This document shows positions 44,425-59,371 of a DNA stretch of 64,000 nucleotides, piece by piece. The position numbers and the translations under genes were made by a program. The notes under the pieces are model-generated. The model was not told the origin of the DNA, did no database searches, and saw only the letters and a list, made by a program, of their open reading frames with translations. Positions within the stretch are counted from its first letter, which is position 1, and every line of letters starts with the position of its first letter. The stretch spans positions 96,223 through 160,222 of the forward strand of contig CASEHD010000009.1 of the NCBI GenBank assembly GCA_949287655.1, in the 5' to 3' direction. The DNA comes from an uncultured Christensenella sp. (GTDB lineage: Bacteria > Bacillota > Clostridia > Christensenellales > UBA3700).

Positions 44425-44450
44425 TAAGGCTTAAAAAGTCGATACGTATC

Positions 44451-44890: not shown

Positions 44891-45439
44891 ATGGTTAACG
44901 GAAATAAATTAAATTTTTATGAAACAGAACTTTCGTCAGATAACTTTAAAAGTCAAACGTGTTGTTTTACGGGATACAGACCGCAGAAAGTAAATTGGGA
45001 ATTCAATAGCTCTTCAAAAGAATATTTACGCGTTGCCGGCATTGTCGAAAACCTGATACAGCAATCTGTAATAAAAGGTTACCGATACTTTATTTCCGGC
45101 ATGGCTATCGGATTTGATACTTTGTGTGCAGAAACAGTTTTAAAAATAAAAGCTGCAAATCCCGATGTAAAACTTATATGTGCTCTACCTTGTAAAGAAC
45201 AAGACCGGTATTGGTCGGATTTACAACGTCAGAATTACAAACGCATTTTAACCCAGGCTGACGCAGTACGATATGTATCTGAAAAATACACAAAATTCTG
45301 TATGCAGAAAAGAAATAAGTATATGATCGACAACTCATATCTCGTTATCGCTCTTTTCGACGGTCAACCCGGCGGGACAAAGTCTACTTTAGTCATGGCG
45401 AAAAAATCAGGACTTAATATCCTGCTTATTTCTCCATGA
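44891..45439 (+). CDS. DUF1273 / YpsA-like SLOG-superfamily protein
   Basis: CCFTGYRPQK...YFISGMAIGFDTLCAETVL...KLICALPCKEQDRYW...MQKRNKYMIDNSYLVIALFDGQPGGTKSTL fits the UPF0398/YpsA pattern as I remember it. Confidence 0.65.
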   Translation: MVNGNKLNFYETELSSDNFKSQTCCFTGYRPQKVNWEFNSSSKEYLRVAGIVENLIQQSVIKGYRYFISGMAIGFDTLCAETVLKIKAANPDVKLICALPCKEQDRYWSDLQRQNYKRILTQADAVRYVSEKYTKFCMQKRNKYMIDNSYLVIALFDGQPGGTKSTLVMAKKSGLNILLISP

Positions 45440-45464
45440 AAAGAGCGGCGCTGTCGCGCCGCCC
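45437..45464 (-). terminator. Rho-independent terminator ending the giant-protein operon
   Basis: The minus strand reads GCGGCGC-GACA-GCGCCGC followed by TCTTTT. It overlaps the stop codon of the convergent DUF1273 gene. Confidence 0.65.
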
Positions 45465-45484
45465 TGAAAATTGTTGCAACGGGA

Positions 45485-45970
45485 TCAGACGAGAGTTATC
45501 GTCACGTCGAAACCGTTGTGTCGATAGGCTATGCTGTATATCTCAACCTTACCTTCGATATAATTGCCTTTAAGATGCGCGGTCGCCTCAACGTCGACGC
45601 CGAGGAGCGATTTAGCGTCGGCAAGCGCGCCTTCTATCTCAAACGCGCCGGTGACCTCTTCGTACGACTTTTCGACGTCGGACTTAAAGTCTGAAAGCGA
45701 CAGCTTTTTGCCGGCGTTTTCAGCCGCCCGGATATACGCCGAAGCGTCTATCTGCAGGTCCTTAAAATCGCTGCTGCCGACGCCGTCCTTATAAGTATAG
45801 ACGGTGACGTCGCCCTGTTTTACCGTAACGGCGAGGTTGTTCTGTTTCGCGCAGACGTCAAAGATCTGAGAGTATATCTCTTCTTCCGTATTGCAGGCGG
45901 TAAACGTCGCCGCCGTCAGCGTCACGACCGCAAGGATCGCGCAGATAAGAATAAGTTTTTTACTTTTCAT
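45485..45970 (-). CDS. Small lipoprotein (161 aa), third gene of the giant-protein operon
   Basis: Signal peptide plus lipobox TFTAC. GGAGG sits 8 nt upstream, inside the preceding gene, and there is an 11-nt overlap with that gene. It is a paralog of 60279-60755 (same length class and the same C-terminal ending: NGFDVTITLV vs NGYKIKITLA). Confidence 0.75.
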   Translation of the reverse strand: MKSKKLILICAILAVVTLTAATFTACNTEEEIYSQIFDVCAKQNNLAVTVKQGDVTVYTYKDGVGSSDFKDLQIDASAYIRAAENAGKKLSLSDFKSDVEKSYEEVTGAFEIEGALADAKSLLGVDVEATAHLKGNYIEGKVEIYSIAYRHNGFDVTITLV

Positions 45971-48900
45971 TGTTGCAACCTCCGTTACGCTTTTTGTTTC
46001 TGTGCGCGCCTATCGCGAGAGCGCCGACCGCAAGCGACAGCCCGCCGACGGACACCGATATCACCGCAGCCGCGAGCTTCTGATAGCCGGACAGCGCGGC
46101 GCCCGCGTTGAGCGCGGCGACGACGGTTTCCTCAGCCGAGCTCATAAGCGCGTCGTACTTGCTTTCGAGACCGCCTACGACGACCCCGTAAGTGTCGCTC
46201 TTTTCGCCCGTCGCGTTATCCTGCCAACCGAGTACCGCCGCGACCTCTTTCGCTTTTTCAAAGCTGACCTCCGCGTTCAGGTAATTTCTGCCGACGTATT
46301 CTTCGAGCACGTCGTAAGTTATCGTCGCGACGACTTCTTTTACATCGCTTTGATTGTAATTTTCTGTCTGCTTATAGCGCAGATATACGGTTATCTGTCC
46401 CGCGACGTCCGCGGATATTCTGCCGTCCGAAGAAAGCGCGGAGAAAGTCGCCTTGTCGAAAGAATACTCAACCGCGTCTCTTTCGTCGACGGTTATCTCG
46501 ATATATCCGTAACCCATACGCGCGGTCGCGGATATCTCTCTGTCCGCGCGGCCGACCGTTACGTCGACGACGACCGTTGCAGCGTCCTCGTAATTTTCAA
46601 GACCTTTGAGCACGAGACCGACATTGTAGGCGCCCGCGCCGAGGATCGTCTCTCCGCTGTAAACGCTGACCCTGCCGGCAAGCGCTTCATCGCCCGCGAC
46701 GAGTCCGCTCACCGTATAGACGACCGTATTCACGGGGTTGATTATGCTGCCGGTATATACGACCTTTTCGGCAGTCGCGTTGATGACGGGAGCCGCCGCC
46801 TTGCTTATCGTGAAAGTCGCGGCAGCGAGCGCGTTGACCTCGTAATTGCCGTTTCCGACGACCTCTGCCGCCCTGACGTAATAATTGCCGGCGTTGACCG
46901 GAGCGACCCGGGAATAATTCCTGCCGTCTGTCGAATATTCGAACGCAACGCTTATAACGTCGTCGCCGACCAGATTGTCCCAGTCCGCCGCCGCGCCGTC
47001 GTAAGCCGCGCCGTCGTAAGTCTTGTCGTCCGCGGCGATCGTGCCGCTCAGAACGCGTTTGACGACGTTTAAATTTGCGGTAAGAGGCTCTCCGCCGTTG
47101 ACCGCGTAGTTCGCCGCGTTGTCGAGCGTATACTCTACCGTCACGGCTATCGCCGTACCAGCGCCAGTCTCGCCCGCGGCGTATTCTTCGGAATATTCAT
47201 AGCCGGTCACCGCGAATTTATCGCTGCCGACCATACCTTCCGCCCTTATGAAATAGACCTCGTTGCCGCCGAGCGGATCGCCGTAGACGACGGAGTTGTC
47301 TTTAAGAGTTACCGTAACGGGAGCCTTTGCGATATTCACGGTTATTTCAGCCTGTTCCGCGTCCTCGTAATTTTCAAGTCCGCTCAACGTTGCGGTGACG
47401 GTATAGTCGCCGGCGTTCAGCAGTTTTGCAAGACAGAGAGTCTGGACATGCGCCGCCAGGCTTTCGTCGCCCGCGAACAAGCCTTCTACCGTAACGGTCA
47501 CGACGTCTGCGACCGTCTTTTCCCTGCCGTCGTAGACGAGCCCGTCCTTAACGGTCAGCACTATAACGGGAGCCTCCGCCTTTACGATATTGAACTGCAC
47601 GCCGCCAGCGATCTCGCCCATAGCGTAGTTGGGGTTGTCGACAGATGTGACTTTGACGTAATAAGAGCCCGCGTCTATCGGCGCGTTGTTTACGTAACTC
47701 ACGCCGTCCAAAGAGTACTGAACGGTACAGTTGACGACGTCGCCTTCCAGTATGCCTTCGCTGTCTATATACGCGTTGTCATACGGCATTCCGTCGTAAA
47801 CCGCTTCCGGCGCGACGACTGAGCCGTCTATCGTCCTCTTGTCCACGGTGAGTTTCGCCGCTACCGCTTCGCCGTTATTGATAAGATAGTTGTCCGCGTT
47901 TCCGGTCGTGAACGTAAAGTACAGAACGACGTCTACAACGCTTCCCGCCGCCGTCTTTACGACGTAATCGGTCGTATATTCAGCCGTCACCGCGTCCTCT
48001 CCGACCAGTCCGTTCACCGCGGTGTAGAAGTCGGTCGCGGCGTAAGTCAGTTCATTGCCGTAAGTCACGTTTTTATCCGCAGTAACCACTCTTACGACAG
48101 CTTTGTCGACGACGACCTCTTTGCCGACGATGACGACGTCGTTGTAGTTCGCCGGATTGTCAACGCTGAAATTGATCGCGGTGACGATCACTTTGCCGCC
48201 CGCGTCGACAGCCGCCTCGGTATATGTCTCTCCGCTTTCGGTCAAAGTCACTGAGTCGAAATCATACGCGTCGTAAACGCCGCTGACAACGGGATCGGTA
48301 ACGGACTTTTCGCCCGCCGCGCTTACCGCGCTTTCACCGTACGCTATCTTTACGTCGACGCCCGAAAAATCCACCTTCGGGGTCGCCTTTTCAACGCAGT
48401 ATTCGCCTGTGCCCGCCGCAGAGTCGACTATCTCGTAATTCGCGTTTGCAGAAGTCGCGACCACCTTGTAGTAGCCCGCGTTCTTTATCTCAGTCACAGC
48501 CTCGAACGTGCCGTCGGCGGTCGCGCTGTAAGTTATCGCATAAGTTTTTTCGAACGTATCCGCAGTCGTCAGTCCGAAAGAAGTTTTCGCTTCGCCGTCG
48601 TAGACCTTATTCTGCAAAGCCGCCCAGCTCGCGTTGGAGTTTTCGCCTGTGATATAAATCTTCTGCGTGACGACTTTCACCTCAAATTCGACGCTCGCCT
48701 CTTCGTAACGCTGGCTCTTCAAAGTCGCGGTCACCGTGTAATTCGTCTCGCCGACGTCGAGCGCGCTTGCTATCTCAACGCCGCCCACCGAGAATACGAA
48801 ATAATCGGTCTCTTCTTTGACTTCCGCTTTATAATCCACCGCCGCGAGAAGCGCGTTCGCCAGCTTTTCAGCCGTGTTCAGGTATTCCGTCGTAAACACG

Positions 48901-51395
48901 CCGTCGACCACCTTGTCGGTCGTTATCACTTCGACAACCGCGGTCACGGTAAATGTGTAAACGTCCGTTTTAAGCTCGTAGTTCGCGTTGTCGAACGTTA
49001 CTTTCACATAGTATCTGTCCGACTCCGTCGGCATACTTTCCGACCATTCGGTCGCGTCTGCGCTCTTCGCGTAACCGTAAATAAACGTAAGCTCGTCGGG
49101 AAGCTGCGTTTCAGGCATAAACTGCGCCGTCTCGCCGTCCGCCACTTCGATCGTCGTGAACTTGTCCTTGACCAGCGCGCCGGCGATCCGATATTTCGCT
49201 ATGACAGCCGTTGCGGCGCCGGTAGCGATCTCGTAGTTCGCCTCGTTGCCGTTCATCAGGACGTTTGCTATGCCGAGGGTGACCTCTGTGCCCGCCGCGG
49301 TCTTTTCGGTATATCCGGTTATTTCATAGCCTGTAAACGCGTCGGGAGCCTGCACGTTCTCGCCGACCGCAACGCCGCCGACCGCAACTATGCCGACGGG
49401 GTTGTTGTTCTTTACCGTATCGAGGCTGTCGCCGTAAGTGATATTGCCCGCGCCGTCGAACGCTATTTCGAGCGCGAGTTTAGCGATGCTTATCTCTATT
49501 TTCGCGCCGTCCTTTACGTTCATCTTATATATCGCGCCGTTTGCGCTGTCGACGAGGTAGTTGCCCTCCGCGTTGGTCAGTTGCACTTCGGTAAGTCCGG
49601 CGCCCGCGTAAAGACCCTTGTTGAGAGTGAATTCGTATTCGCCCGCCGCGCCGCTGTTGGCTTTTTCGCCGCTGAACACGTTTATGCCGCCCGTCTTGTC
49701 GCCCGCGACCGTCTTAACGCTTATATCTTTGAGATTGTTCACGCCGTCGTAAGTCTTTGAATACGAATATGTGTTGGTGTCTTCCGCATAGGTAAAGCCT
49801 TCCGCAATGTCCGCGCTGCCCATCGTCATAAAGTTGAGCGTATACAGCGTGCCGTAATCCTGCTGATTGCCGGACGAAGTAAACTCAACGTTGGCGAACA
49901 TATCCATCGTAAGATATACGCTGCCCGTCTGAGACTCGTCCGCGACTATCGTATACTCTTCGACGTCGTAGACGTTTTTATCCCTGTCCGTCACCGAATA
50001 AAGCGCGCTTTCGCCTTCCTTCCATACGACGGACTGCTGCGCGGGAATTACCAGTTTACCGCCGCTGACGTACACGGGCGCGGAAATATCGTAAACGATA
50101 CCGCCGTTGTACGTCTCGTTGTCGCCCATGACCCATACGTCGTGTTGCGTGCTGGTGGAAGCGTAGTAAACGTTTTCGATAGTCGTCAACGAAGTATCCG
50201 ATCCGTTTTTTCCGATTAGGGCACCGAAGTTATCATCGTTTGTACCCATATTTTTGCTTTTTATAACACCTGTAAACGAGTAGTTAAGTCCGTCAATATT
50301 CACCGATACCGATCTATCTCCGCTTGGCGATTGAACTTCACCTATTATTCCGCCTGCGTAGCCTGTATTGGGTCTGCCTTTGCTTACGACCCAACTTCCG
50401 ACTGTTACGTTTGCCGAATAATTTTCGTTAAAGTTATATATCTTGCCTGCACCTTCAAGATTGATATTTGTCATCGTAAGTTTTCCGTTGTTTACTCTGC
50501 CGACAAAACCTCCGAGAATGTAATATCTTTCATTGCCGTCTTTTGCTCTCCAACCGCTTATGCCGAAGCCGCCGACAGTCGTCGCGGAAAGATTTTCGTT
50601 GCCCGCGTTCGCGTTGACGGAGACCGTCGTCTCGTCTATCGTCGTATTGCCCGCGATATCGCCGACAACGCCGCCGAGCATCAGATAATTGGGAGCGCCC
50701 GAATTTCTTGAAGTATAGTCGTAAAGATAGTTGGTGTTTTTCTTGTTTGCGTCGGCGGTGCCGTAAGCCTCGTTGGAAGCCCAGTTAAGATCTACGCGCA
50801 CGTTCTCTATCTTTGCGTTATTGGTCGCCTGACCCGCGATAATACCTGCCAGAGCGCCGACCTGATCCGCGCCTATCGTATACTTGGATACGACAATTTT
50901 AACGTTCTTGACCGTGCCGCCGTCTATCGCTTTGAACAGACCGCCGACGATCTGCTCGGTGCCGCCGCTTGTCGTAAGTGTGCCTTCGACGCTTATCTTG
51001 ATCGTATGTCCGTTGCCGTCCAGAATACCTTTCAGCGCGGTCACGGTATCGTAACTGCTGACGGTGATATCCTCGTCCAGGTAGTAATACATATTCGTAT
51101 TGTCTTTGCCCGGAATATAACTGTTCCAGCCTGTCTGCGTTATCTTCTGCGCGGTATATCCTTCCGGCACGTTGGCGGTCGGGTCGTAATCCGAAGCGAC
51201 GCTTCCGTTGGCGACGTAGCCTTCGTCCACGGCTATTTCAGCCGCATATACGGTCTGCGCGCCGCCGCCCGCAACGATATTTTCAACCGTTTCGCCCAGG
51301 ATAAATGTCAGCGCGACCGCTACCATAAGGAGCAGTGCGGTGACTACCGCCGCGATATTATATCTTTTTCTTGTCATCTTCTCGCCTCCTCTCAT
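45960..51395 (-). CDS. 1,811-aa surface repeat protein: N-terminal TM, GLUG-like region, ~12 MBG/YDG-type repeats, C-terminal TM plus basic tail
   Basis: N-terminal TM is IAAVVTALLLMVAVALTFILG. GLUG-like motifs include GGLFKAIDGGTVKNVKI, LGGVVGDIAGNTTI, GGFVGRVNNGKLT and AGGIIGEV. Repeats of about 80 aa carry the signature K.YDG...NAG.Y.V......NY......F.I.KA. The C-terminus is LAAAVISVSVGGLSLAVGALAIGAHRNKKRNGG, and there is no LPXTG. Confidence 0.8.
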   Translation of the reverse strand: MRGGEKMTRKRYNIAAVVTALLLMVAVALTFILGETVENIVAGGGAQTVYAAEIAVDEGYVANGSVASDYDPTANVPEGYTAQKITQTGWNSYIPGKDNTNMYYYLDEDITVSSYDTVTALKGILDGNGHTIKISVEGTLTTSGGTEQIVGGLFKAIDGGTVKNVKIVVSKYTIGADQVGALAGIIAGQATNNAKIENVRVDLNWASNEAYGTADANKKNTNYLYDYTSRNSGAPNYLMLGGVVGDIAGNTTIDETTVSVNANAGNENLSATTVGGFGISGWRAKDGNERYYILGGFVGRVNNGKLTMTNINLEGAGKIYNFNENYSANVTVGSWVVSKGRPNTGYAGGIIGEVQSPSGDRSVSVNIDGLNYSFTGVIKSKNMGTNDDNFGALIGKNGSDTSLTTIENVYYASTSTQHDVWVMGDNETYNGGIVYDISAPVYVSGGKLVIPAQQSVVWKEGESALYSVTDRDKNVYDVEEYTIVADESQTGSVYLTMDMFANVEFTSSGNQQDYGTLYTLNFMTMGSADIAEGFTYAEDTNTYSYSKTYDGVNNLKDISVKTVAGDKTGGINVFSGEKANSGAAGEYEFTLNKGLYAGAGLTEVQLTNAEGNYLVDSANGAIYKMNVKDGAKIEISIAKLALEIAFDGAGNITYGDSLDTVKNNNPVGIVAVGGVAVGENVQAPDAFTGYEITGYTEKTAAGTEVTLGIANVLMNGNEANYEIATGAATAVIAKYRIAGALVKDKFTTIEVADGETAQFMPETQLPDELTFIYGYAKSADATEWSESMPTESDRYYVKVTFDNANYELKTDVYTFTVTAVVEVITTDKVVDGVFTTEYLNTAEKLANALLAAVDYKAEVKEETDYFVFSVGGVEIASALDVGETNYTVTATLKSQRYEEASVEFEVKVVTQKIYITGENSNASWAALQNKVYDGEAKTSFGLTTADTFEKTYAITYSATADGTFEAVTEIKNAGYYKVVATSANANYEIVDSAAGTGEYCVEKATPKVDFSGVDVKIAYGESAVSAAGEKSVTDPVVSGVYDAYDFDSVTLTESGETYTEAAVDAGGKVIVTAINFSVDNPANYNDVVIVGKEVVVDKAVVRVVTADKNVTYGNELTYAATDFYTAVNGLVGEDAVTAEYTTDYVVKTAAGSVVDVVLYFTFTTGNADNYLINNGEAVAAKLTVDKRTIDGSVVAPEAVYDGMPYDNAYIDSEGILEGDVVNCTVQYSLDGVSYVNNAPIDAGSYYVKVTSVDNPNYAMGEIAGGVQFNIVKAEAPVIVLTVKDGLVYDGREKTVADVVTVTVEGLFAGDESLAAHVQTLCLAKLLNAGDYTVTATLSGLENYEDAEQAEITVNIAKAPVTVTLKDNSVVYGDPLGGNEVYFIRAEGMVGSDKFAVTGYEYSEEYAAGETGAGTAIAVTVEYTLDNAANYAVNGGEPLTANLNVVKRVLSGTIAADDKTYDGAAYDGAAADWDNLVGDDVISVAFEYSTDGRNYSRVAPVNAGNYYVRAAEVVGNGNYEVNALAAATFTISKAAAPVINATAEKVVYTGSIINPVNTVVYTVSGLVAGDEALAGRVSVYSGETILGAGAYNVGLVLKGLENYEDAATVVVDVTVGRADREISATARMGYGYIEITVDERDAVEYSFDKATFSALSSDGRISADVAGQITVYLRYKQTENYNQSDVKEVVATITYDVLEEYVGRNYLNAEVSFEKAKEVAAVLGWQDNATGEKSDTYGVVVGGLESKYDALMSSAEETVVAALNAGAALSGYQKLAAAVISVSVGGLSLAVGALAIGAHRNKKRNGGCNNEK

Positions 51396-54300
51396 TCGCC
51401 GTCTGCCGGGGTATCTTCACCGGAAGGTACGTCCGGCTCAGGCTCTTCGGGCTGAATTTCGTTTACTTTGCTCATATATACGGTAACTTCGACCGACTGA
51501 ACTTTGCCCGCCGCGTCCGTAACCGATATCTTTACCGTAAACGCCGTCGCGCCCTGCTCCTGCGCCGTCGTGCCGAGCGAGCCGTCGTAATATACGGTCT
51601 CTTCGCCCGGGGTCAGCGCGGAAAAGTCGAGCGCCGCTTCGAGAGAAGCGGTCTCGCCTCCCTCGAATACAGCTGTCAGGGTCGCGGTAGCAGTCGGAGC
51701 GGATACCGCTTCGTAAGAAACGCCGTTTATCTCAACCGTCACAGTGCCCGCCGTCTCGTCGTAAGCCGCGTAATACTCGCCCGTTATCCCGCTGAAACCG
51801 GTCAGCTTTTTCGCCGTCACGGTCACGGGTACGATCACGCTGTAAGTCTTGCCGTTGTATACGAAACTTGCCGCCGCGAGATATTCGCCGCCTGTCGCGG
51901 AAAAATCCACTCCGCTCAGATTCCAGCCGGTCACGGTGACGTTAAAGCTCGTATTGCCGCTGCCGACGGTGATCTCCGTCGGGAACTGAGCCGCGCCGCC
52001 CTCGCCGTACGGGTCGACGGTCACGCCGCCGCCTACGTATTCAAGCGAGCCGCCGATTTTGACCGTCATAGCCTGTCTCTGATAGAACGCCGCGTTCAGC
52101 GCCGCGTCGTCGGAATATCCGATCTCAGCGTATACGGTCACATCGTAATTGCTTGCGTCGAATGTGAGCGTTTCAAAGTTGAGCGCGTAGCCGTTCCTGT
52201 CCGTCCAGCGTATCGGGAGCGCGAGCACGTAGCCGTTGGTGAACCTGACCCACGCCGTGGTCGGGAACAGCGCCGCCTTTTCTTCCGCGGTCATATTATT
52301 GAACGCGAGCGCGTCGATACTTATCGTATTCCTTCTCAGCGCCCTGTCGAAATAGACGCCCTCTATAACATTGCTCTGCACGTCAATGCTCACCGTCTTT
52401 GTCCAGGTGAAGTATTCCGAGCCTGCGAGAGTCGCGGTCGCCCCGCATGTGCCGGACGTGTTGTAAGTCATCGTCGTGAAATCGAATTCCGTGGCGAATT
52501 TGACCTTTACCTCTTCCGACCACTCCTTTCCGTCGTAAACGTAATTAGCGTCCACGTTTGTCGGCCACGGCGAGAAGGTCGAGCCTTCCGTCGCGGTCAG
52601 TGCGTACAGATAATAGTCATACGGATTGACGACAACCGTGTCTTCCTTTCCGTCAATCGTAAGAGAAGTCACTTCTTTGTTTTTTATACGCACGGTAAGT
52701 TCGAGAGTCTGTTCAAGGTTGCCCTTGCCGACGGTCGCCACCGCGGTGAATTCCATACCCGACAGGTCGTTCTCCGTCCTTTGAGCAAACGTCTGCAATA
52801 CCTCCGCGTCGACCGACCAGCTTTCAACGTCAATCGCGCCGTACATTCCGTCCGGATAGGAGAAGAACAGCTGAGCCGGCAACTGACTCATTATGTCGAG
52901 CGCACTGTCGAACGCGTACAGGTCGAGTTCGTATACCCCGCTCTCACCGTCGCTTCCGAGCGCGGTTATCGTGCTGTCGAGATATTCGACGTCGAGCGCG
53001 GCTTCAGCGCCGTTTCTGAACGTTACTGCCGCCTGATACGTTCCGCCGTCTATCGTCGGCGACGGCATCGTCAGGTTCTTTATCGCGGACATCTCCACTC
53101 TGCGCGAGGTCATATTTTTGAAATACACCGTTATCGACGACGGAGCGCTGTCGTATGCGTGGAGCGACACCGTATCTATAAGAGCGGGCTCAAGGTTGGG
53201 ATATACCGTTATCGTGAATTCTCTTTCCCTCGTCACCCCGTTGGGGAATGTCGCGACCGCCTTTCCTTTCAGAACGGTCTCTTCAAAGTTGTCGTTGTTT
53301 GCGTAATTCAGAAGTCCGAGCGAAGTCGTGCCGAGGACGATCTTGTCGCCGTAGCTTTGCGCGTCCTCGTTCCACATATAGAAGCTGACTTCCGCCTTCA
53401 TTACCGTCGTGCCCTGTTGGTAGACCGCGATCTTGTCCGTAAAGTAGTTTTCTATAAATTCGTAGTCGCTTGTCACCGCGTCGTTTTCATAAGCGAGCGG
53501 TTCAAAGAACATATCGAATTGCATATTGCCCCAGTTCACGACGCCCGCCGTACCGCTGCCGTCAACCGTGTTGTCCGGGTCGCCGACCGACGAGAAGCAA
53601 TCGTACAGGTTTATCTCAGTCTTATAGGTATTGCTGCGCTGGTTGGCGTTGTACACCTGATCGTTGGAAACGATATTCGTTTCTGTGGACACGCAGTATT
53701 TTCCGTGGTATTCCAGCACCTCGCCGTCCGCATTTGTGACCGCCTGGTTGTAATCGTAACCCTGAATATAGATGTTGGTCAGCGTGCCGTCCACAAGATT
53801 GAGTCCCGCGTTTACCTCGTTGTATACGGGGAGCGGCAATATAGCCTTGACGATATCGTACACTATGCCGTTGAGCAGGTCTCCTATTGCGCCGTCCAGC
53901 GCACCCGCGACGATACCGCCCACGCCGTCCACTTTATTTTCTATCAACGTCTTGACGATCTGTTTGAGTTCGTTGCTGAGCGTCGACCAGAACGCGTTGT
54001 AGTTGGTCCTGTCCCAGTTCACGTATTTCAGATAGTGCGCGCCGAACATGTCGGGAGCGAGCTTACTGAGGTCTATCTGCGATTCCGCACCGAACACAAG
54101 GTTTCCCATGAGATCGTCGATCAGTTTGTTGAACGTGTAAGAATCAAAGTTGATATTGACGTTCAACGTGCCCGTTGAGCGCATGCTGATATCTATGCCG
54201 CCGCTCAACAGTGCGTTGATATCGAGATTGTCGAAGATATCGGTCTCTATCTTAAGTCCGCCTTCCTCTGCGGTCGTTTCGTCTTCTGCCGCGGCAATCT

Positions 54301-57300
54301 CCGGCACTTCGACTTCAACGCCGTCCTCTGTAAACACGAGAGAGTCGATTATGCTCTGCATTGCGCCGGAAAGCGTGCCGACTATATCCATCTGGAATTC
54401 GAGCATACTGCCTACTATGCTCGCGAGATCTATTGTGAACAGAACATTTACGGTAAACTTGCCGGGCACGAGAATTATCTTCATATTCTTTCCCGTGCCG
54501 TCCGCGCCTAACGCGTCGTCCGAATAGTCGAGCGTGATGTGCAGAAGCGCGTCATCCGCATAATTGGTCGTCGTGTTGTTGAATCTGTCCTCGCTGCTGA
54601 TAAGGTACAACGATATCACCAGGGTCTCCGCCGCAACGCTGTCGCTCGTGCCGTCGAGCGTGAAGTTGCTCTCGCCTTCGACCACGTTCTTTATTCTTAC
54701 GCGCAGATAGCTGTTTCCGCCGCTTTCTACGCTGTTGTTGAGGATATCCAGATTAAAGTCCATATTCAGGCATTTAAGCAGGCTTCTCGTCATCGCCTCG
54801 CCGTCGGTCGCGTCGAGGACTTTTCCCGAATCGCTGGTCACGGTAAAGCTTTCGGCAGGCTTGAGCGCAAGTTCCGCCGTCAGGTTGAAGGTATCGTTTA
54901 CGGATACCGGCAGTTTTATCGTGCCGCCGTCAATGTCTATCTCTCCTTCTTTGACCTCTATATTAACGCCGAGGGTCGTGCCCAGAAGCGCGGTGAAGAT
55001 CGTATCGAAAGTGGACGCCGCGATATTCGCTTTTATCACACCGTCGTATATAGAGATATCGCCGAGGACAGCCGCAAGTATCGCTTTTGTATCCGTACCG
55101 TCCCCTGTCGTCGTTTCGTCCGAAGCCGCGCCGCCGTCGCCCGTCTCCGCAGTCTTGCCCGCGCCCGTTATCAGGTCTGTCAGAAGCGCGCCGAGATCGG
55201 TATCTCTGAGTATGCCGACCTTCTCGTCCAGCATCGTGAACAGACTGGTCGCGAGCTCGCTGTTTTCGACCTTGAATTCAAACAGTCCCATTCCTTCGAG
55301 GTCTACGAAAAGATCTCCTTCCTGTATGCCCAGGGAAAGTATTTTCTTCTGCTCATATCTGAGTTCAAGATATATCTTTGTGTCGTACGGGCTGTCGAGA
55401 TGTATATCCCATTTAAGGTCTAGATACAGCTTCGCGTCGTTCTTGTCGAGAACAAGGTTTATCGGGAAGCCGATATAGCTGCCCTCTTTCGCTAAGATAT
55501 TGTTTAACATCGACGCGATATCTATCGTGTCTTTTTCGTTGGCTATCTGCAGCGTCATGCCAGCCTGCATTGAGTTGGCAAGGTCGAACACGACGTCGTA
55601 CAGCGATTCTTCCGCATCGGCAGCCTTTTCCTTTCCGCGGGCGACCGCCGCAGCGAGGTTGACCGTCGAGCCTATCGAGATCGGATAGCTTTCGGTGCCC
55701 GTTTCAAGAGACAGCGAATAGTCTCCGTATTCTGTCGGAAGCGCCGCGCCGCCGTCGCCGTATACCGTCTTTTTTGGCAGAGTTCCCGAAAGATCGAGAG
55801 TTACGCCCTTCGTGCCGAGCGATACGTCCGCGGTAAGGTCGAGGACGTCCGCGCTTATGCCGGTATCCACGTTCAGCTCTTCGAGAAGTTTAATAAGCGC
55901 CGCGAAAGTTACGCTCGCGGTTATCTTGTCCGCGCTGAGTCCGACAAGCACTGCGCCCGCCTCTGTAAGCTCCGTGCCGCCCGCGGTGCCGTCGCTTTCG
56001 GTCATTATCAGGCTTTCAGCTTCGGACGAGCCGCCGATGAGTCCGCTTAAATCGAATGCAAGGTCTAAGTCCGTCAGATTTTCTCCGTTTATCTTTATAC
56101 CCCCGATAAGATCGAGTACTATATTCGCAAAGTCGAATTCGAACTTATAAACGGGCAGCGTCAGGTACTGAGTCTTTATGCCGCTGAGGTCGAGAAGCAC
56201 CGTCGGAACGCCGTTTTCGTAATAGCCGTAAACGCCGATAATGATATCCCCGCCCGTCTTTTTCAGTTCGAGCGCGAGAGTGCTGTTTTCAGGCTTTTCC
56301 CTGTCGATCGAGAACGCCGCGAGAAGGTCTATGCCGACCTCGTATCTGTCGCCGTCCGCGTTATTCGCGGAAAGACCCAGCGTCGGGTTGTCGCCGCCGG
56401 TATCGATGCCGAATCCCGCCAGCAGCTTCCCTATCGCGTACTCTGCAGCCTCAACGCCGAGCGTACCGTTTGCGTTGACTTCTACGCCTGCAAGCGCGGA
56501 ATATATGAGGTCGCCGAGGTTGGACGTATAGTCGCCGTCCGTGCGCTCAGCGATATAATCGGAAAGGTCCTGCAATGTGCCTTCGAGGAAGCCGACGCGG
56601 AAATCGTGCGCTCTCAAAGTCGCGTTCAGCGGATCGTTCTCGTCGCCGAGGTCGACGGTCGCGACTATGTCGTTCAAGCCGTATTCCGCAAAGTTGACAG
56701 AAAGGCTCATATTGCTGAGACCCGCCGGCAGAGTTATCTTGTTCTCCTCGCCGAGGAAGCCGTTTATCACGTCAAAGAACTTCTGATCGACTTCGACGAT
56801 AAGGCTGTCGCCTTCCTCGTCCACGTAAACGTTTTCCTGCAGACCGATAACGCCGACCACCGCGGAGATAAGACCGCTTATCGTCGGGTTTATGATCGCC
56901 TTTACTTCGCCGCCGTCATCGCTCAACGTCGCTTCGAGCATATTGCCCGAAGAGAGCGACAGCGCCTTAGCTTCGTCAAAATCGGTGCCGAGCGCCTCGT
57001 CTATCGCCTTCGTTACAAGATTCACGAGGTCGCCTATCAGCGCGTCGAGGCTTGCTTCTATCTTTATATTCTTTGCGTTCCAGTAATCGGGTATGAGGTC
57101 GGATAGAGAAATATAGAACGCCCCGTCTCTGTAATAGATACCCAGAGCCGGCGTATCGCCCGTCGGCTGACCGTCCGCGCCGAGCACGTACAGATCGAGG
57201 GCGATAAGGTTGTTGTCCGCCGAAGATCCGGCGTAATTGAGGTCGAGGTCTACCCTCGCGGAAAGTCTGAACCCGAACTCTCCTTCGATTATCAGAGTGT

Positions 57301-58723
57301 TTTCGGGCACAGGCACGTCGTCTGTGAACAGACCTATCAGCTTTGCGACGTCCAGTCCGTTTTCGGGCGCGTCCAGCGTAAGGTCGATATCAAACGCGAG
57401 GTTTGTAAAGGAAAATTCGCGCGAATTGCCTTCAAGGTCTGTCGGCATATCAATATATATCGGATAGTCGTAGTATCCGATCTTCGTGCTCTTCCAGTTG
57501 AGCAGCTCGTCTCCCTCCGACCCTGCCGCATTGTCGCTGACGCTGGTCGTAATGCCTGTGATCACCCCGTTTTCGCAGTCTGCCTGCAAGTACATCCTGA
57601 CCTGCGGCACGGCGGAATTCAGCCAGTTGAACAGCGAGCTGAGATCAAGATCTATGCCGATGAGATCCCCCAGGTCGAACATGTCGAGCAGGCTCTTTAA
57701 ACCGGTTATCATACTGTTGACCTTGACTTCGAAAAGCAGGCTTTCGCCGACCAGCTCTCCTGTCGAGACCCTTACCGTCTTCGTATACAGAGGGGTGTTG
57801 AATATGAGTCCTATCAGGGTGCCGTATATGTCGATATTCCCCGCGAGCCCGTTGAGCAGCTCTTCGATGTCTATCTCCGCTCCCGCCTCTGCAAGAATCG
57901 CGGCAAGATATTCCGCCTTAAGATCGCTGAGGTGCACGTACGCCTCGCCGTCGCCGAAATCGAGATAGACCTCTCCGTTCACCGCATAGATCGCAAAAGC
58001 GACGCTCTCGTCGTCCTGCATGGATATCCTGAACATCATCTGCGTGCTCTTGCCCTCATCGAGGTTGATCTGCAGCTGTACGCGAGCGGCGCCGTTTGTC
58101 GTCGTCAGCAGGCTGTCGTAATCTATCGCCACGCCGTTCATTGAATCGAAGTAACCCATGAGCTTTTCGATCGCGCTCTTTGCCGTGAGATCATACCCCG
58201 TCGTCTGTTCGTATTCTGCCGTGCCCGCGTCCGCAGTCCACTTGGCGTACAGAGTCGCGTCCTTTGTCGGCGTGTACGGGAAAGTCACCTGCGCGCCCGT
58301 AAGCCTGGGGCTGGTGTACCAACCGGCGAATACGAAACCGTCGCGGTAGGTGCGCGGCGAAGTTTCGATCACGTCGGTGACCGCGTCCTCTATCTCGCTG
58401 CCGCCGTTCACGGCGAAACTCACGGTATAGAGTCTGGTCCATTTTGAATACAGCGTGACGTCAGACGTCAACGTCATCGGGAAAGCAGCCTCTGCGGTAA
58501 ACTCGGGATCGAGATACCAGCCTTCGAAACGGTACCCGCTCCGTTCGGGAGCTTCGGGCGCCGTCGCCACTATCGTCTGATCGCTTATCGCAGTCGCGGT
58601 CTCGTCGCCGTTATCGAGAGTTAGCGTAAAAGACGCCACCTTCTCGTCACAAGCGGCAAAGACAAAGACCAGCGACAACACTAACGCGAGCAGCGCGGCA
58701 GTCAGCATTACCTTCTTTCTCAT
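51392..58723 (-). CDS. 2,443-aa giant lipoprotein: two InlB B-repeats, ~1,500-aa uncharacterised core, C-terminal Ig-like repeats
   Basis: AAGGAGG RBS and a signal peptide plus lipobox VFAAC. Two Flg_new/InlB B-repeats cover residues about 31-163 (RSGYRFEGWYLDPEFT...LYSKW; YTVSFAVNGGSEI...DGFVFAGWYTSP...LYAKW). The C-terminal third has repeated modules with W-centred motifs (IDVESWSVDAEVL, LPIRWTDRNGYA, VTVTGWNLSGVDF). The ATGA overlap links it to the next gene. Confidence 0.8.
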   Translation of the reverse strand: MRKKVMLTAALLALVLSLVFVFAACDEKVASFTLTLDNGDETATAISDQTIVATAPEAPERSGYRFEGWYLDPEFTAEAAFPMTLTSDVTLYSKWTRLYTVSFAVNGGSEIEDAVTDVIETSPRTYRDGFVFAGWYTSPRLTGAQVTFPYTPTKDATLYAKWTADAGTAEYEQTTGYDLTAKSAIEKLMGYFDSMNGVAIDYDSLLTTTNGAARVQLQINLDEGKSTQMMFRISMQDDESVAFAIYAVNGEVYLDFGDGEAYVHLSDLKAEYLAAILAEAGAEIDIEELLNGLAGNIDIYGTLIGLIFNTPLYTKTVRVSTGELVGESLLFEVKVNSMITGLKSLLDMFDLGDLIGIDLDLSSLFNWLNSAVPQVRMYLQADCENGVITGITTSVSDNAAGSEGDELLNWKSTKIGYYDYPIYIDMPTDLEGNSREFSFTNLAFDIDLTLDAPENGLDVAKLIGLFTDDVPVPENTLIIEGEFGFRLSARVDLDLNYAGSSADNNLIALDLYVLGADGQPTGDTPALGIYYRDGAFYISLSDLIPDYWNAKNIKIEASLDALIGDLVNLVTKAIDEALGTDFDEAKALSLSSGNMLEATLSDDGGEVKAIINPTISGLISAVVGVIGLQENVYVDEEGDSLIVEVDQKFFDVINGFLGEENKITLPAGLSNMSLSVNFAEYGLNDIVATVDLGDENDPLNATLRAHDFRVGFLEGTLQDLSDYIAERTDGDYTSNLGDLIYSALAGVEVNANGTLGVEAAEYAIGKLLAGFGIDTGGDNPTLGLSANNADGDRYEVGIDLLAAFSIDREKPENSTLALELKKTGGDIIIGVYGYYENGVPTVLLDLSGIKTQYLTLPVYKFEFDFANIVLDLIGGIKINGENLTDLDLAFDLSGLIGGSSEAESLIMTESDGTAGGTELTEAGAVLVGLSADKITASVTFAALIKLLEELNVDTGISADVLDLTADVSLGTKGVTLDLSGTLPKKTVYGDGGAALPTEYGDYSLSLETGTESYPISIGSTVNLAAAVARGKEKAADAEESLYDVVFDLANSMQAGMTLQIANEKDTIDIASMLNNILAKEGSYIGFPINLVLDKNDAKLYLDLKWDIHLDSPYDTKIYLELRYEQKKILSLGIQEGDLFVDLEGMGLFEFKVENSELATSLFTMLDEKVGILRDTDLGALLTDLITGAGKTAETGDGGAASDETTTGDGTDTKAILAAVLGDISIYDGVIKANIAASTFDTIFTALLGTTLGVNIEVKEGEIDIDGGTIKLPVSVNDTFNLTAELALKPAESFTVTSDSGKVLDATDGEAMTRSLLKCLNMDFNLDILNNSVESGGNSYLRVRIKNVVEGESNFTLDGTSDSVAAETLVISLYLISSEDRFNNTTTNYADDALLHITLDYSDDALGADGTGKNMKIILVPGKFTVNVLFTIDLASIVGSMLEFQMDIVGTLSGAMQSIIDSLVFTEDGVEVEVPEIAAAEDETTAEEGGLKIETDIFDNLDINALLSGGIDISMRSTGTLNVNINFDSYTFNKLIDDLMGNLVFGAESQIDLSKLAPDMFGAHYLKYVNWDRTNYNAFWSTLSNELKQIVKTLIENKVDGVGGIVAGALDGAIGDLLNGIVYDIVKAILPLPVYNEVNAGLNLVDGTLTNIYIQGYDYNQAVTNADGEVLEYHGKYCVSTETNIVSNDQVYNANQRSNTYKTEINLYDCFSSVGDPDNTVDGSGTAGVVNWGNMQFDMFFEPLAYENDAVTSDYEFIENYFTDKIAVYQQGTTVMKAEVSFYMWNEDAQSYGDKIVLGTTSLGLLNYANNDNFEETVLKGKAVATFPNGVTREREFTITVYPNLEPALIDTVSLHAYDSAPSSITVYFKNMTSRRVEMSAIKNLTMPSPTIDGGTYQAAVTFRNGAEAALDVEYLDSTITALGSDGESGVYELDLYAFDSALDIMSQLPAQLFFSYPDGMYGAIDVESWSVDAEVLQTFAQRTENDLSGMEFTAVATVGKGNLEQTLELTVRIKNKEVTSLTIDGKEDTVVVNPYDYYLYALTATEGSTFSPWPTNVDANYVYDGKEWSEEVKVKFATEFDFTTMTYNTSGTCGATATLAGSEYFTWTKTVSIDVQSNVIEGVYFDRALRRNTISIDALAFNNMTAEEKAALFPTTAWVRFTNGYVLALPIRWTDRNGYALNFETLTFDASNYDVTVYAEIGYSDDAALNAAFYQRQAMTVKIGGSLEYVGGGVTVDPYGEGGAAQFPTEITVGSGNTSFNVTVTGWNLSGVDFSATGGEYLAAASFVYNGKTYSVIVPVTVTAKKLTGFSGITGEYYAAYDETAGTVTVEINGVSYEAVSAPTATATLTAVFEGGETASLEAALDFSALTPGEETVYYDGSLGTTAQEQGATAFTVKISVTDAAGKVQSVEVTVYMSKVNEIQPEEPEPDVPSGEDTPADGE

Positions 58724-59371
58724 TTTCCGTCCTCCTTTTTCGCATTTAATCGCATTAAATTATTTAAATAAAAAGATTAAAAGCAACTTAAAATACCGGA
58801 AGTAAAGATATGGAAAAAGCTGTTATAGGTAAAAAACGTGCAGAAAACGCATTTGCGGTAAAATTCCCGTATATTTCCGATTTTTTGATAATTATACTTG
58901 AAAACGCCGTTTTTTGCCGTAATAACCGCGCTTTGGCGCAAAATATCCTCGCCGCCGCAGACGCGCGAAAAAAGTCGCGCGACTATACTGCTCAGGTAAA
59001 AAACATATAAAACATTTTTTCTGTTTTTTACATATAATCTTATTAATACTAAGTAATATACAATAAAAATCAAAATTAGTATTATTATACGAAAACCGGT
59101 AATTTTAAGAAAAACCCGCTTTTCGGACGCGGCTTTCGTAGTTTTGCGGCATACGTTATTTTTTTAACATTATACAATATCCGAGGCTGAAAATCAGGTT
59201 GCTTTTTGTCTGAAAATTGATTTTTTCACCTGATATCTCATATAATCGCGCCTTTCTCTGCTTACGACGAAAAGACGGAACGGCGCGGTTTTAAACTCTT
59301 TGCGGTATTTTTTGTCCTCAGTCTTTGCCCTTTTTCGGAACCGACGGAGCGCGGCGCGCATACACTGAAAT

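What the first reader, a model, noticed from the sequence alone, without database searches (positions are those of the whole stretch)
45437..58723. 13.2-kb translationally coupled operon: giant lipoprotein, doubly anchored repeat protein and small lipoprotein
Seen in sequence: three minus-strand genes of 2,443, 1,811 and 161 aa are joined by overlapping stop/start codons. The overlaps are ATGA at 51392-51395 and 11 nt at 45960-45970, with a GGAGG inside the upstream gene. AAGGAGG precedes the first gene and a terminator lies at 45437-45464. None of the three has an LPXTG sorting signal. Gene 1 has a lipobox (VFAAC). Gene 2 has an N-terminal TM plus a C-terminal hydrophobic segment followed by HRNKKRNGG. 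Gene 3 has a lipobox (TFTAC).

Established knowledge: InlB B-repeats, GLUG motifs and MBG/YDG-type repeats occur in large Firmicute surface proteins, which are normally wall-attached by sortase, SLH or CWB domains.

Inference: this looks like a membrane-tethered, three-component surface structure (adhesin, fibre or envelope scaffold) whose anchoring logic and small-lipoprotein partner are not part of any described system I know. It occupies a fifth of the window and is duplicated (see 60279-64000).
Basis: partly seen in the sequence, partly recalled or inferred. Interest (0 to 1): 0.75.

Follow-up and report, generated by a model that had tools for sequence, protein, structure and literature searches.

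The report
Conserved giant membrane-anchored surface-protein operon
A gut Clostridia lineage (Christensenellales) carries a conserved operon for a giant lipoprotein, a giant membrane-anchored repeat protein and a small partner lipoprotein, none of them characterised; it is most likely a regulated cell-surface adhesion structure, real and lineage-specific but of unproven function.

Summary
The three minus-strand genes, their lipoboxes, the C-terminal anchor, the ribosome-binding sites and the terminator are real. Two details need correcting. Gene 2 most likely starts 18 nt downstream of the ATGA overlap. GLUG and MBG domains are not detected by HMM in gene 2.

The arrangement is not chance. Gene-1 homologues occur at 35 loci in 29 species genomes, all Christensenellales or Clostridia MAGs. 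In every locus where the downstream gene could be read, it encodes a 1,800-2,100-aa protein with an N-terminal hydrophobic segment, a beta-helix-like head and a C-terminal TM plus basic tail.

The small lipoprotein family is tiny: 29 representatives among 1.84 billion. In every context examined it overlaps, directly follows or is fused in frame to such a tail-anchored protein.

AlphaFold/Foldseek give weak LolA/RseB-like matches for the gene-1 core and for gene 3. No Pfam family, PDB sequence relative or paper describes the system.

A direct repeat, TTAAG-N6-TTAAG, sits about 70 nt upstream of nearly every gene-1 homologue. Most distant loci also carry an adjacent OmpR-type regulator.

Best reading: a regulated, membrane-tethered adhesin or fibril module with gene 3 as a dedicated partner of the tail anchor. 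Function is unproven, so interest is moderate.

The parts
51392..58723 (-). Gene 1: 2,443-aa giant lipoprotein. It comprises a signal peptide with lipobox, two InlB B-repeats, a core of about 1,550 aa with no family match, Ig-like repeats and an acidic tail.
   Evidence: ORF and translation. About 58 full-length homologues at 29-100% identity, all unnamed. 35 loci in 29 species genomes.
58649..58723 (-). Gene 1 signal peptide MRKKVMLTAALLALVLSLVFVFAAC, with the lipobox Cys at residue 25.
   Evidence: PROSITE-type lipobox pattern match. The Cys is at least 90% conserved across 40 homologues. Lipoboxes were found in most distant homologues.
58229..58636 (-). Two Listeria-Bacteroides / InlB B-repeat units (about aa 30-165).
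   Evidence: Pfam PF09479, E = 1.1e-19; TIGR02543. A profile of the family matches the InlB B-repeat in the PDB.
53564..58216 (-). Gene 1 core (about aa 170-1720). No Pfam family. It is predicted as repeated helix plus antiparallel beta-meander modules with weak LolA/RseB-like fold matches.
   Evidence: AF2 model of aa 170-1369: pLDDT 62.9. Foldseek PDB top hits are RseB, LolA, MucB and LolB, with probability up to 1.0 but E about 2e-3 and TM below 0.4. One weak internal duplication, aa 721-819 versus 1024-1120.
51392..53563 (-). Gene 1 C-terminal region: repeated Ig-like modules and the acidic tail EEPEPDVPSGEDTPADGE.
   Evidence: hhalign internal repeats, aa 1928-2036 versus 2131-2240, probability 93%. 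Some homologues carry a Big_4 (PF07532) hit. The Ig-like assignment is otherwise inferred from sequence.
45960..51377 (-). Gene 2: about 1,805-aa protein, with the likely start at ATG 51375-51377 (the ORF extends to 51395). It comprises an N-terminal hydrophobic segment, a beta-helix-like head, divergent MBG-like repeats, a conserved C-terminal module, a TM and a basic tail.
   Evidence: Orthologues start at the equivalent Met. The family has one source name only, a hypothetical protein of Candidatus Ornithoclostridium faecavium.
49896..51233 (-). Gene 2 head domain (about aa 55-500) with the LDGNGHTI motif and GG..G....I.N repeats. It looks like a GLUG-type beta-helix by eye only.
   Evidence: The head is shared with genes X and Y of distant loci and with P0219, P0221 and P0226. 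The alignment has an invariant D-G-x-G and periodic G/N columns. No Pfam hit and no PDB sequence relative.
46005..46715 (-). Gene 2 conserved C-terminal module (Ig-like plus helical region, aa about 1560-1772) and TM helix (aa 1773-1797).
   Evidence: The equivalent C-terminal region of the L001 orthologue of gene 2 is 34% identical over 335 aa to the upstream paralogue. The same module precedes every gene-3 homologue examined. Hydropathy peak 2.15.
45963..46004 (-). Basic cytoplasmic tail HRNKKRNGGCNNEK. Its Gly-Gly codons GGAGGT are the Shine-Dalgarno sequence for gene 3.
   Evidence: Sequence. Tails of the form KRKGGxxNEK are conserved in orthologues. The same arrangement occurs in L047 and L050.
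45485..45970 (-). Gene 3: 161-aa lipoprotein (lipobox TFTAC, Cys26). It overlaps gene 2 by 11 nt.
   Evidence: The family has only 29 representatives among 1.84 billion proteins. AF2 model: pLDDT 85.8, pTM 0.74, a helix plus an antiparallel sheet of about eight strands. Weak LolA-like Foldseek hits. No Pfam family.
45439..45465 (-). Intrinsic terminator after gene 3. It may work in both directions, because the convergent YpsA-like gene ends at 45439.
   Evidence: 10-bp GC-rich stem, GACA loop and U tract; -20.8 kcal/mol, z = -4.8.
58776..58791 (-). TTAAGTTGCTTTTAAT: a conserved direct repeat TTAAG-N6-TTAA(G/T), 68 nt upstream of the gene-1 ATG. It is a candidate response-regulator operator or promoter element.
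   Evidence: Present upstream of gene-1 homologues in 34 of 37 loci. There are 47 hits in 18.5 kb of upstream windows against 2 in 1.75 Mb elsewhere.
58829..59031 (-). Three GTAAAAAAC / GTTTTTTAC boxes at 59023-59031, 58996-59004 and 58829-58837, conserved in the upstream region of the ortholog group.
   Evidence: Alignment of seven upstream regions. Occurrences are clustered upstream of gene 1.
60279..60755 (-). Gene 3 paralogue (158-aa lipoprotein) ending the neighbouring upstream unit. It overlaps the large gene before it by 14 nt.
   Evidence: 29% identity to gene 3. Conserved at the same place in L009-L015. Terminator at 60214-60237.
60742..64000 (-). Gene-2-like paralogue with MBG repeats, the C-terminal module, a TM and the tail KKGKGGRKNEKK. 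It runs off the window and is interrupted by a frameshift near 62760-62796.
   Evidence: Orthologues in L010 and L012-L015 are single ORFs of at least 2,300-2,500 aa.

Best explanation
This is a Christensenellales-specific operon for a membrane-tethered cell-surface structure, most likely an adhesin or fibril module whose expression is controlled by a response regulator.

Shown:
- Gene 1 is exported with a lipoprotein-type signal. It is followed in every locus where the downstream gene could be read by a gene for a giant protein with an N-terminal hydrophobic segment and a C-terminal TM plus basic tail.
- Gene 3 is made together with the tail-anchored protein, through overlap with a Shine-Dalgarno sequence inside the tail codons. 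In other lineages it is fused to that protein in frame.
- A conserved TTAAG-N6-TTAAG element marks the gene-1 promoter region across the whole family.

Inferred:
- Gene 1 is diacylglycerol-anchored at Cys25. It projects a long stalk of InlB B-repeats, tandem beta-meander (possibly LolA-like) modules and Ig-like domains through the wall.
- Gene 2 is held in the membrane by its C-terminal helix, with the basic tail in the cytoplasm. It projects a stalk of MBG-like repeats tipped by a beta-helix head that binds a ligand.
- Gene 3 is a small, possibly LolA-like lipoprotein made 1:1 with gene 2. It docks on or stabilises the membrane-proximal C-terminal module of gene 2.
- Transcription is activated by an OmpR-family regulator. 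That regulator is encoded next to paralogous and distant loci, and would act in trans on this locus.
For: - Gene order is conserved in close relatives and in distant ones, where gene 1 is 25-34% identical and 34 of 35 genome loci show gene 1 followed by a tail-anchored giant protein (L040 is a 7-kb contig end).
- The full distant operon is gene 1, then X, then Y fused to a gene-3 domain.
- The gene-3 family is always adjacent to, or fused with, the TM-plus-basic-tail module in every context examined.
- All four fusions retain the lipobox.
- Lipoboxes and TM segments are present. There are no sortase, SLH or CWB signals.
- Adhesin-type domains are present: Flg_new in gene 1 and MBG in the paralogues. 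The proteins have an acidic composition.
- Conserved cis-elements and adjacent regulators are present.
- The site architecture matches known OmpR-family operators, TGTWAH-N5-TGTWAH (PMC9210968) and GTTAAN6GTTAA (PMC5083920).
Against: - There is no direct evidence for surface exposure, complex formation, ligand binding or transcription.
- The adhesin-type domains are only marginal in gene 2 itself.
- About 1,550 aa of gene 1 match nothing known, so their role is open.
- The LolA-like fold calls are weak: TM 0.28-0.37 and E above 1e-3.
- No two-component system lies within this window, and the WalR-like box is absent here.
- Operon adjacency does not prove that gene 1 and gene 2 interact.
Confidence: 0.45

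Rival explanations
1. Lipid or hydrophobic-ligand handling apparatus. The tandem LolA/RseB-like modules of the gene-1 lipoprotein, together with the small LolA-like gene-3 lipoprotein, would bind and pass acyl-bearing molecules (glycolipids, lipoteichoic acid intermediates, lipoproteins) across the wall. The tail-anchored proteins would act as scaffolds.
For: Foldseek top hits for both models are LolA, RseB, MucB, LolB and a S. aureus LolA-like lipoprotein. Both proteins are membrane-tethered lipoproteins. LolA-like lipoproteins do exist in monoderm Clostridia, for example GerS (bioRxiv 10.1101/2025.01.13.632879, found).
Against: TM-scores are 0.28-0.37 and E-values are above 1e-3. No LolA-clan Pfam family is hit by gene 1, or by any of the 24 gene-3 homologues at E <= 1 among the families listed. 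Profile comparison finds no homology between gene 3 and the gene-1 modules. No TamB or AsmA-type hit appears. No lipid-metabolism genes are linked.
Confidence: 0.12
2. Independent adhesins that merely share an operon. Gene 1 and gene 2 would be unrelated surface proteins with no physical or functional partnership, and only gene 2 and gene 3 would work together.
For: The gene-2-like plus gene-3 pair occurs without gene 1. It does so in the upstream unit at 60279-64000. In L046 it has its own promoter-like region, but only 293 nt lie upstream of it before the contig end. The only evidence linking gene 1 to gene 2 is adjacency.
Against: Gene 1 is never seen without a following tail-anchored giant gene in the loci where the downstream gene is readable, despite divergence down to 25% identity and changes in the flanking genes. 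The gaps between the two genes are 0-20 nt.
Confidence: 0.2
3. Sporulation or germination envelope proteins. The locus would be expressed in the sporangium and act at the spore membranes, by analogy with the LolA-like germination lipoprotein GerS.
For: A SleB-type hydrolase gene and a GerQ-like gene lie between the two units; the hydrolase gene is conserved there in orthologues. A paralogous locus lies near gerA and spoIIE. GerS is a LolA-like lipoprotein.
Against: The spore genes are on the opposite strand. Spore genes are numerous in spore-formers, so proximity is weak evidence. Most distant loci are flanked by unrelated genes. Adjacency to a two-component regulator and the direct-repeat operators are not typical of sigma E, F, G or K promoters (this last point is from my own knowledge).
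Confidence: 0.07
4. Mobile-element or phage cargo, such as a conjugation adhesin or a receptor-binding protein.
For: The genes are very large and acidic and have a slightly higher GC content than their surroundings.
Against: Chromosomal synteny with the Bmp/ABC transporter genes is conserved (L001, L048). No integrase, relaxase or phage genes are nearby. The search of predicted viral structures gave nothing meaningful.
Confidence: 0.02

Closest known systems
Large multi-domain Firmicute surface adhesins with MBG/MucBP-type, GLUG-type and InlB B-repeat domains
   Same: Giant, acidic, repeat-rich exported proteins. Flg_new repeats occur in gene 1. MBG_2 and MBG_3 occur in the paralogues. The head domain has a beta-helix-like GG..G..I.N pattern.
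   Different: There is no LPXTG, SLH or CWB wall anchor. Anchoring is by an N-terminal lipobox in gene 1 and by a C-terminal TM plus basic tail in gene 2. Gene 2 itself fails the MBG and GLUG HMMs. A fixed operon with a dedicated small lipoprotein has not been described.
LolA/LolB/RseB/LprG/GerS-type (LolA-like fold) lipoprotein domains
   Same: These are the best structural matches for the gene-1 core and for gene 3. Both proteins are lipoproteins, with a helix followed by an antiparallel beta-sheet.
   Different: The matches are weak (TM below 0.4). There is no sequence-family membership. The mature gene-3 protein is about 135 aa, shorter than LolA. A tandem array inside a 2,443-aa lipoprotein is not a known architecture, and there is no outer membrane to serve.
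Tail-anchored Gram-positive surface proteins, i.e. a C-terminal hydrophobic helix and a basic tail without a sortase motif, such as Listeria ActA (from my own knowledge)
   Same: A C-terminal TM followed by a Lys/Arg-rich tail, with no LPXTG.
   Different: Here the tail anchor is genetically coupled or fused to a lipoprotein. The tail codons carry the ribosome-binding site for the next gene.
Surface or wall regulons controlled by two-component systems of the OmpR family: WalRK (site TGTWAH-N5-TGTWAH, PMC9210968) and SaeRS (site GTTAAN6GTTAA, PMC5083920)
   Same: Direct repeats with 11-bp periodicity lie upstream of gene-1 homologues. An OmpR-family regulator is encoded next to most distant loci.
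   Different: The regulator is a generic OmpR/PhoB family member; its best PDB match is DrrD. The kinase has 420-445 aa, not WalK-like. No binding has been shown. This window has only the TTAAG box and no adjacent two-component system.

Membership tests
Bacterial lipoproteins (Lgt/Lsp substrates) | N-terminal signal peptide ending in a lipobox [LVI..][ASTG][GAS]C, with a positively charged n-region | tested here: met
   Gene 1 MRKK...VFAAC and gene 3 MKSKK...TFTAC match the PROSITE-type pattern. The paralogue at 60279-60755 has CASAC, which fits only the looser rule.
Bacterial lipoproteins (Lgt/Lsp substrates) | Conservation of the lipobox Cys across homologues | tested here: met
   Cys26 is invariant in 24 gene-3 homologues. 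The Cys is at least 90% conserved in 40 gene-1 homologues. It is retained in all four fused forms.
Bacterial lipoproteins (Lgt/Lsp substrates) | Actual lipidation and cleavage by signal peptidase II | not testable with these tools
   Needs globomycin sensitivity, palmitate labelling or mass spectrometry. SignalP-6 was not available.
Sortase-anchored LPXTG proteins | LPXTG-like motif immediately before the C-terminal hydrophobic segment and basic tail | tested here: not met
   No LPXTG or relaxed variant lies near the C-terminus of gene 1, gene 2 or the paralogue.
LolA/LolB clan (LolA-like fold) | Sequence match to a clan family HMM (LolA, LolB, MucB_RseB, LppX_LprAFG, DUF4367 and others) | tested here: not met
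   No such hit for gene 1 or gene 3. No such hit among the families listed for the 24 gene-3 homologues at E <= 1.
LolA/LolB clan (LolA-like fold) | Unclosed antiparallel beta-barrel with helices, recognised by structure comparison | tested here: inconclusive
   The top Foldseek hits are LolA, RseB, MucB and LolB, with probabilities up to 1.0. However, E is 2e-3 to 5e-3 and TM is 0.28-0.37. The gene-1 model has only pLDDT 62.9.
LolA/LolB clan (LolA-like fold) | Hydrophobic cavity that binds acyl chains | not testable with these tools
MBG-domain (MucBP-related) adhesins | Pfam MBG, MBG_2 or MBG_3 above the gathering score | tested here: not met
   Gene 2 has no hit even at E = 10. The test is met only by the upstream paralogue (MBG_3, 46.9 bits) and by P0230 (MBG_2, 44.7 bits).
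GLUG-motif proteins | Pfam PF07581 match | tested here: not met
   No hit. The resemblance is by eye only.
InlB B-repeat / Listeria-Bacteroides repeat proteins | PF09479 / TIGR02543 match | tested here: met
   Gene 1 aa about 30-165 holds two units, E = 1.1e-19.
Bridge-like lipid transfer proteins (AsmA/TamB) | Sequence or fold match to AsmA or TamB-type beta-groove repeats | tested here: not met
   There are no Pfam hits. No TamB or AsmA structure appears among the top 50 Foldseek hits.
WalR-type regulon | TGTWAH-N5-TGTWAH site in the promoter region | tested here: not met
   The site is absent upstream of gene 1 in the window and in its ortholog group. It is present at 27 regulator-linked related loci.

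The most novel reading that the evidence does not exclude
The locus encodes a previously unrecognised envelope machine of monoderm Christensenellales. A giant lipoprotein built from tandem LolA-like lipid-binding modules would form a wall-spanning conduit or scaffold together with tail-anchored beta-helix proteins. The small LolA-like lipoprotein would be released from its partner, in the fused versions, by signal peptidase II cutting at an internal lipobox. That would make the fused form a lipoprotein 'polyprotein', a processing mode not described for bacterial surface proteins.
Probability: 0.1. Interest if true: 0.8.

Novelty: new variant of a known kind. Interest (0 to 1): 0.5.

Why it matters
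Christensenellales are heritable, health-associated gut bacteria that are almost uncharacterised at the molecular level. This locus devotes 13 kb, and with its paralogous units considerably more, to membrane-anchored surface proteins that no database names.

If the model is right, it defines three things:
- two new protein families, the gene-1 core and the gene-3 lipoprotein;
- a sortase-independent way of displaying giant adhesins, in which a tail anchor is paired with or fused to a dedicated lipoprotein;
- a compact, testable regulatory circuit made of the TTAAG-N6-TTAAG and TGTAAA-N5-TGTAAA boxes and an adjacent OmpR-type regulator.

The in-frame fusions that keep a lipobox raise the testable question of whether signal peptidase II can process an internal site.

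If the locus is only another set of adhesins, it is ordinary. It would still be useful as a lineage marker.

Tried and rejected
- Pfam and NCBIfam on all three proteins gave only Flg_new in gene 1. GLUG and MBG were not detected in gene 2.
- PDB sequence searches with single proteins and with family profiles gave only the InlB B-repeat, and nothing for gene 2 or its head domain.
- I tested the idea that gene 3 is a free copy of a gene-1 module. Profile-profile comparison matched only the signal peptides, and all gene-1 segments scored below 3% probability. Rejected at the sequence level.
- Self-BLAST of genes 1 and 2 found no repeats at 1e-3. Segment-wise hhalign found only weak internal duplications.
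- I looked for a riboswitch or leader RNA in the 650-nt region upstream of gene 1, for example a c-di-GMP riboswitch. Rfam found nothing at the gathering threshold or at E <= 1.
- No two-component system like those next to the distant loci is present in the window.
- The search for related loci with the diverse gene-3 alignment failed because no stretch was conserved enough.
- A phage or viral origin was checked against the viral structure library, with no meaningful matches.
- Four literature searches for a described system found none.
- Looking up the exact gene-1 protein returned only a 21.6-kb contig, so the region beyond window position 64000 could not be read.

Full report
**Observation**

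The three minus-strand ORFs exist as described: 51392-58723 (2,443 aa), 45960-51395 (1,811 aa) and 45485-45970 (161 aa).
- Gene 1 is preceded by AAGGAGG, 7 nt before its ATG.
- Gene 3 starts 11 nt inside gene 2, with GGAGG 8 nt upstream.
- A 10-bp GC-rich hairpin followed by a U tract comes after gene 3 (-20.8 kcal/mol, z = -4.8).
- A PROSITE-type lipobox pattern matches gene 1 (…VFAAC) and gene 3 (…TFTAC). No LPXTG-like motif is present in any of the proteins.
- Hydropathy finds gene-2 segments at aa 11-42 and 1773-1797. The second is followed by HRNKKRNGGCNNEK.

**Corrections to the observation**

*Gene 2 start.* The gene-1 stop codon is followed directly by GAGGAGG, and seven nt later by a second ATG at 51375-51377 (MTRKR…). 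Orthologues in L001 and L013-L015 begin at that Met, 19-21 nt after the gene-1 stop. The ATGA overlap is therefore probably not the start that is used. The genes are still tightly packed.

*Domains.* Pfam and NCBIfam detect only two InlB B-repeat units, in gene 1. Gene 2 has no hit even at E = 10. MBG_3 and MBG_2 are significant only in the upstream paralogue and in a distant relative. GLUG is a by-eye resemblance.

*Duplication.* The region at 60279-64000 contains only a gene-2-like gene and a gene-3-like gene. The large gene there is interrupted by a frameshift near 62760-62796. This looks like a deletion of roughly 40 nt compared with intact orthologues of at least 2,300 aa.

**Organism and distribution**

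One gene-2 homologue is named as a hypothetical protein of Candidatus Ornithoclostridium faecavium, order Christensenellales.

Gene 1 has about 58 full-length homologues at 29-100% identity. All are 2,300-3,000 aa long and none carries a name. A scan of one genome per GTDB species found 35 loci in 29 genomes. All are Christensenellales, Christensenellaceae or unclassified Clostridia MAGs. Several genomes carry both an orthologue (64-78% identity) and a paralogue (34-36%).

**Conservation of the arrangement**

In close relatives the same three genes occur in the same order and with the same overlaps. The upstream pair of paralogue and small lipoprotein is conserved too, and the SleB-type gene between the units is retained in most of them.

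In distant loci (gene 1 at 25-34% identity), the gene-1 homologue has a lipobox in most loci scored. Where the downstream gene could be read, it is followed within 0-20 nt by a gene for a 1,800-2,100-aa protein. That protein has an N-terminal hydrophobic segment, a head carrying the same (L/F)DGNG(H/Y)T(I/V) motif, and a C-terminal TM with a Lys/Arg tail. A third gene of the same kind follows.

One complete distant operon reads gene 1, then X, then Y, followed by unrelated oxidoreductase genes. There, Y ends in a gene-3 domain fused in frame.

**The small lipoprotein**

A profile of the gene-3 family found only 29 representatives with E <= 1e-3 among 1.84 billion proteins. Most are lipoproteins of 160-186 aa. 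Four giant gene-2-like proteins carry the domain at their C-terminus (P0219, P0221, P0226, P0230); a fifth large, unrelated repeat protein (P0224) gave a weak internal match.

In those fusions the order is: helical module, TM, basic stretch, signal-peptide-like helix, canonical lipobox Cys, gene-3 domain.

In every genomic context I could read, gene 3 is in one of three states:
- it overlaps the tail-anchored gene by 8-14 nt;
- it follows that gene after a 14-nt gap;
- it is fused to that gene in frame.

The Gly-Gly codons GGAGGT in the conserved tail KRKGGxxNEK serve as the Shine-Dalgarno sequence for gene 3. Together, translational coupling and repeated fusion are strong evidence that gene 3 works with the tail anchor in fixed proportion.

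No Pfam family covers gene 3.

**Structure**

An AlphaFold2 model of gene 1 aa 170-1369, built on 40 homologues, is of moderate quality (pLDDT 62.9). It consists of repeated helix plus antiparallel beta-meander modules. Its best PDB matches are RseB, LolA, MucB and LolB, with Foldseek probabilities up to 1.0. However, E is about 2e-3 and target-normalised TM is 0.28-0.37.

The gene-3 model is good (pLDDT 85.8, pTM 0.74). It shows a helix followed by a sheet of about eight strands. Its top hits are also LolA-like proteins, again weak (E = 5e-3, TM 0.31-0.34).

Sequence profiles show no homology between gene 3 and any gene-1 segment. No LolA-clan HMM is hit. I therefore treat 'LolA-like' as a lead and not as membership.

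The gene-1 C-terminal third contains repeated modules that I read as Ig-like. There is nothing meaningful in the viral structure library.

**Regulation (found in passing)**

The direct repeat TTAAG-N6-TTAA(G/T) lies about 70 nt upstream of the gene-1 start codon in 34 of 37 loci from all clades. That is 47 hits in 18.5 kb of upstream windows, against 2 in 1.75 Mb elsewhere. In the window it is at 58776-58791.

Most distant loci encode an OmpR-family regulator, with or without a kinase, immediately upstream. In 27 such loci a TGTAAA-N5-TGTAAA repeat lies 107-160 nt upstream of the TTAAG box, with only one hit elsewhere in 1.64 Mb. That repeat fits the B. subtilis WalR consensus TGTWAH-N5-TGTWAH quoted in PMC9210968. 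The TTAAG repeat resembles the SaeR site GTTAAN6GTTAA (PMC5083920).

The window locus has the TTAAG box and three GTAAAAAAC/GTTTTTTAC boxes. It has no WalR-like repeat and no comparable two-component system within 64 kb. Regulation in trans is an inference. No known riboswitch is present.

**Interpretation**

The best-supported reading is a regulated, sortase-independent surface module. Gene 1 is a lipid-anchored giant stalk. Gene 2 is a tail-anchored repeat stalk with a beta-helix head. Gene 3 is a dedicated lipoprotein partner of the gene-2 membrane-proximal module.

Export signals, anchoring motifs, gene linkage, fusions and the conserved cis-elements are shown. Surface exposure, complex formation, ligand binding and the identity of the regulator are inferred.

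Rivals are a lipid-handling role for the LolA-like modules, co-transcription of independent adhesins, a spore-envelope role and a mobile element. The spore-envelope idea is suggested by the neighbouring sleB-like and gerQ-like genes and by the GerS precedent found. All four are listed with their evidence in the Rival explanations section. None is excluded except the mobile-element idea, which is strongly disfavoured.

**Novelty**

No family model, solved structure, source annotation or paper describes these proteins or this arrangement.

Giant repeat-rich surface proteins, lipoprotein anchors and tail anchors are each known. What is new is their fixed combination, the two uncharacterised families and the dedicated cis-elements. 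I rate this a new variant of a known kind, of moderate interest, and a higher-interest case if the lipid-conduit or internal-lipobox-processing reading proves true.

Noticed in passing
window 58776-58791 (minus strand); also L003-L048 upstream of gene-1 homologues: The direct repeat TTAAG-N6-TTAA(G/T) lies about 70 nt upstream of the start codon of nearly every gene-1 homologue (34 of 37 loci). It is about 2,000-fold enriched over the rest of the loci. It is a candidate OmpR-family operator or promoter element and resembles the SaeR site GTTAAN6GTTAA.
   Followed up: partly
L003-L008, L017-L042 (27 loci), 107-160 nt upstream of the TTAAG box; absent from the window: A perfect TGTAAA-N5-TGTAAA direct repeat, matching the WalR consensus TGTWAH-N5-TGTWAH, occurs in loci that carry an adjacent OmpR-type response regulator. 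Only one further hit occurs in 1.64 Mb elsewhere.
   Followed up: partly
window 59023-59031, 58996-59004, 58829-58837: GTAAAAAAC / GTTTTTTAC boxes (an inverted pair 27 nt apart, plus one more copy) are conserved upstream of gene 1 in the ortholog group. They also occur upstream of some paralogous gene-1 copies (L020-L022).
   Followed up: partly
window 62760-62796, within 60742-63940: The gene-2-like paralogue is split into two ORFs by a frameshift. Orthologues (L010, L012-L015) are single ORFs, and L010 has about 13 extra residues (…NYKWSGLNDDVRALTVKWNVAP…) at this point. This is either a real deletion that makes a pseudogene or an assembly error.
   Followed up: partly
window 59372-59800 (+) and 59868-60134 (+): A SleB-type cell-wall hydrolase gene (Pfam Hydrolase_2 in the identical contig L048) and a small GerQ-like gene (named by eye) lie between the two surface-protein units on the opposite strand. 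The hydrolase gene is conserved there in orthologues. This indicates a spore-forming organism.
   Followed up: partly
P0219, P0221, P0226, P0230; L045 9033-14777; L046 294-8240: These are in-frame fusions of the tail-anchored giant protein to the small lipoprotein. They keep a canonical internal lipobox after a TM-basic-TM hairpin. This raises the question of whether signal peptidase II processes an internal site.
   Followed up: partly
window 46005-45960; L047, L050: The conserved cytoplasmic tail …KRKGGxxNEK of the tail-anchored proteins is encoded by sequence that also supplies the Shine-Dalgarno (GGAGG, from the Gly-Gly codons) and the start codon of the overlapping lipoprotein gene. This dual coding may explain why the tail is conserved.
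   Followed up: yes
L003, L028, L029, L031-L037, L042, about 3-4 kb upstream of gene-1 homologues: A lipoprotein of 285-302 aa (a SH3_3 plus NlpC/P60 peptidoglycan hydrolase in L003/L004) is conserved just upstream of the regulator gene in several distant clades. This hints at a link to wall remodelling.
   Followed up: no
window 59114-59128 (minus strand): A terminator-like hairpin (GTCCGAAAAGCGGGT followed by TTTTTC) lies inside the long AT-rich region upstream of gene 1, with no obvious gene before it on that strand. It may terminate the convergent or divergent neighbour, or it may be a leader element. Rfam found nothing.
   Followed up: partly
window 38645-45439 (+): Downstream of the operon, on the plus strand, lie a Bmp-family lipoprotein gene, ABC transporter genes (ABC_tran and two BPD_transp_2 permeases) and a YpsA-like gene. 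The names come from the syntenic loci L001 and L048. This block is syntenic in a relative with 75% identity, so the operon sits in a conserved chromosomal context.
   Followed up: partly
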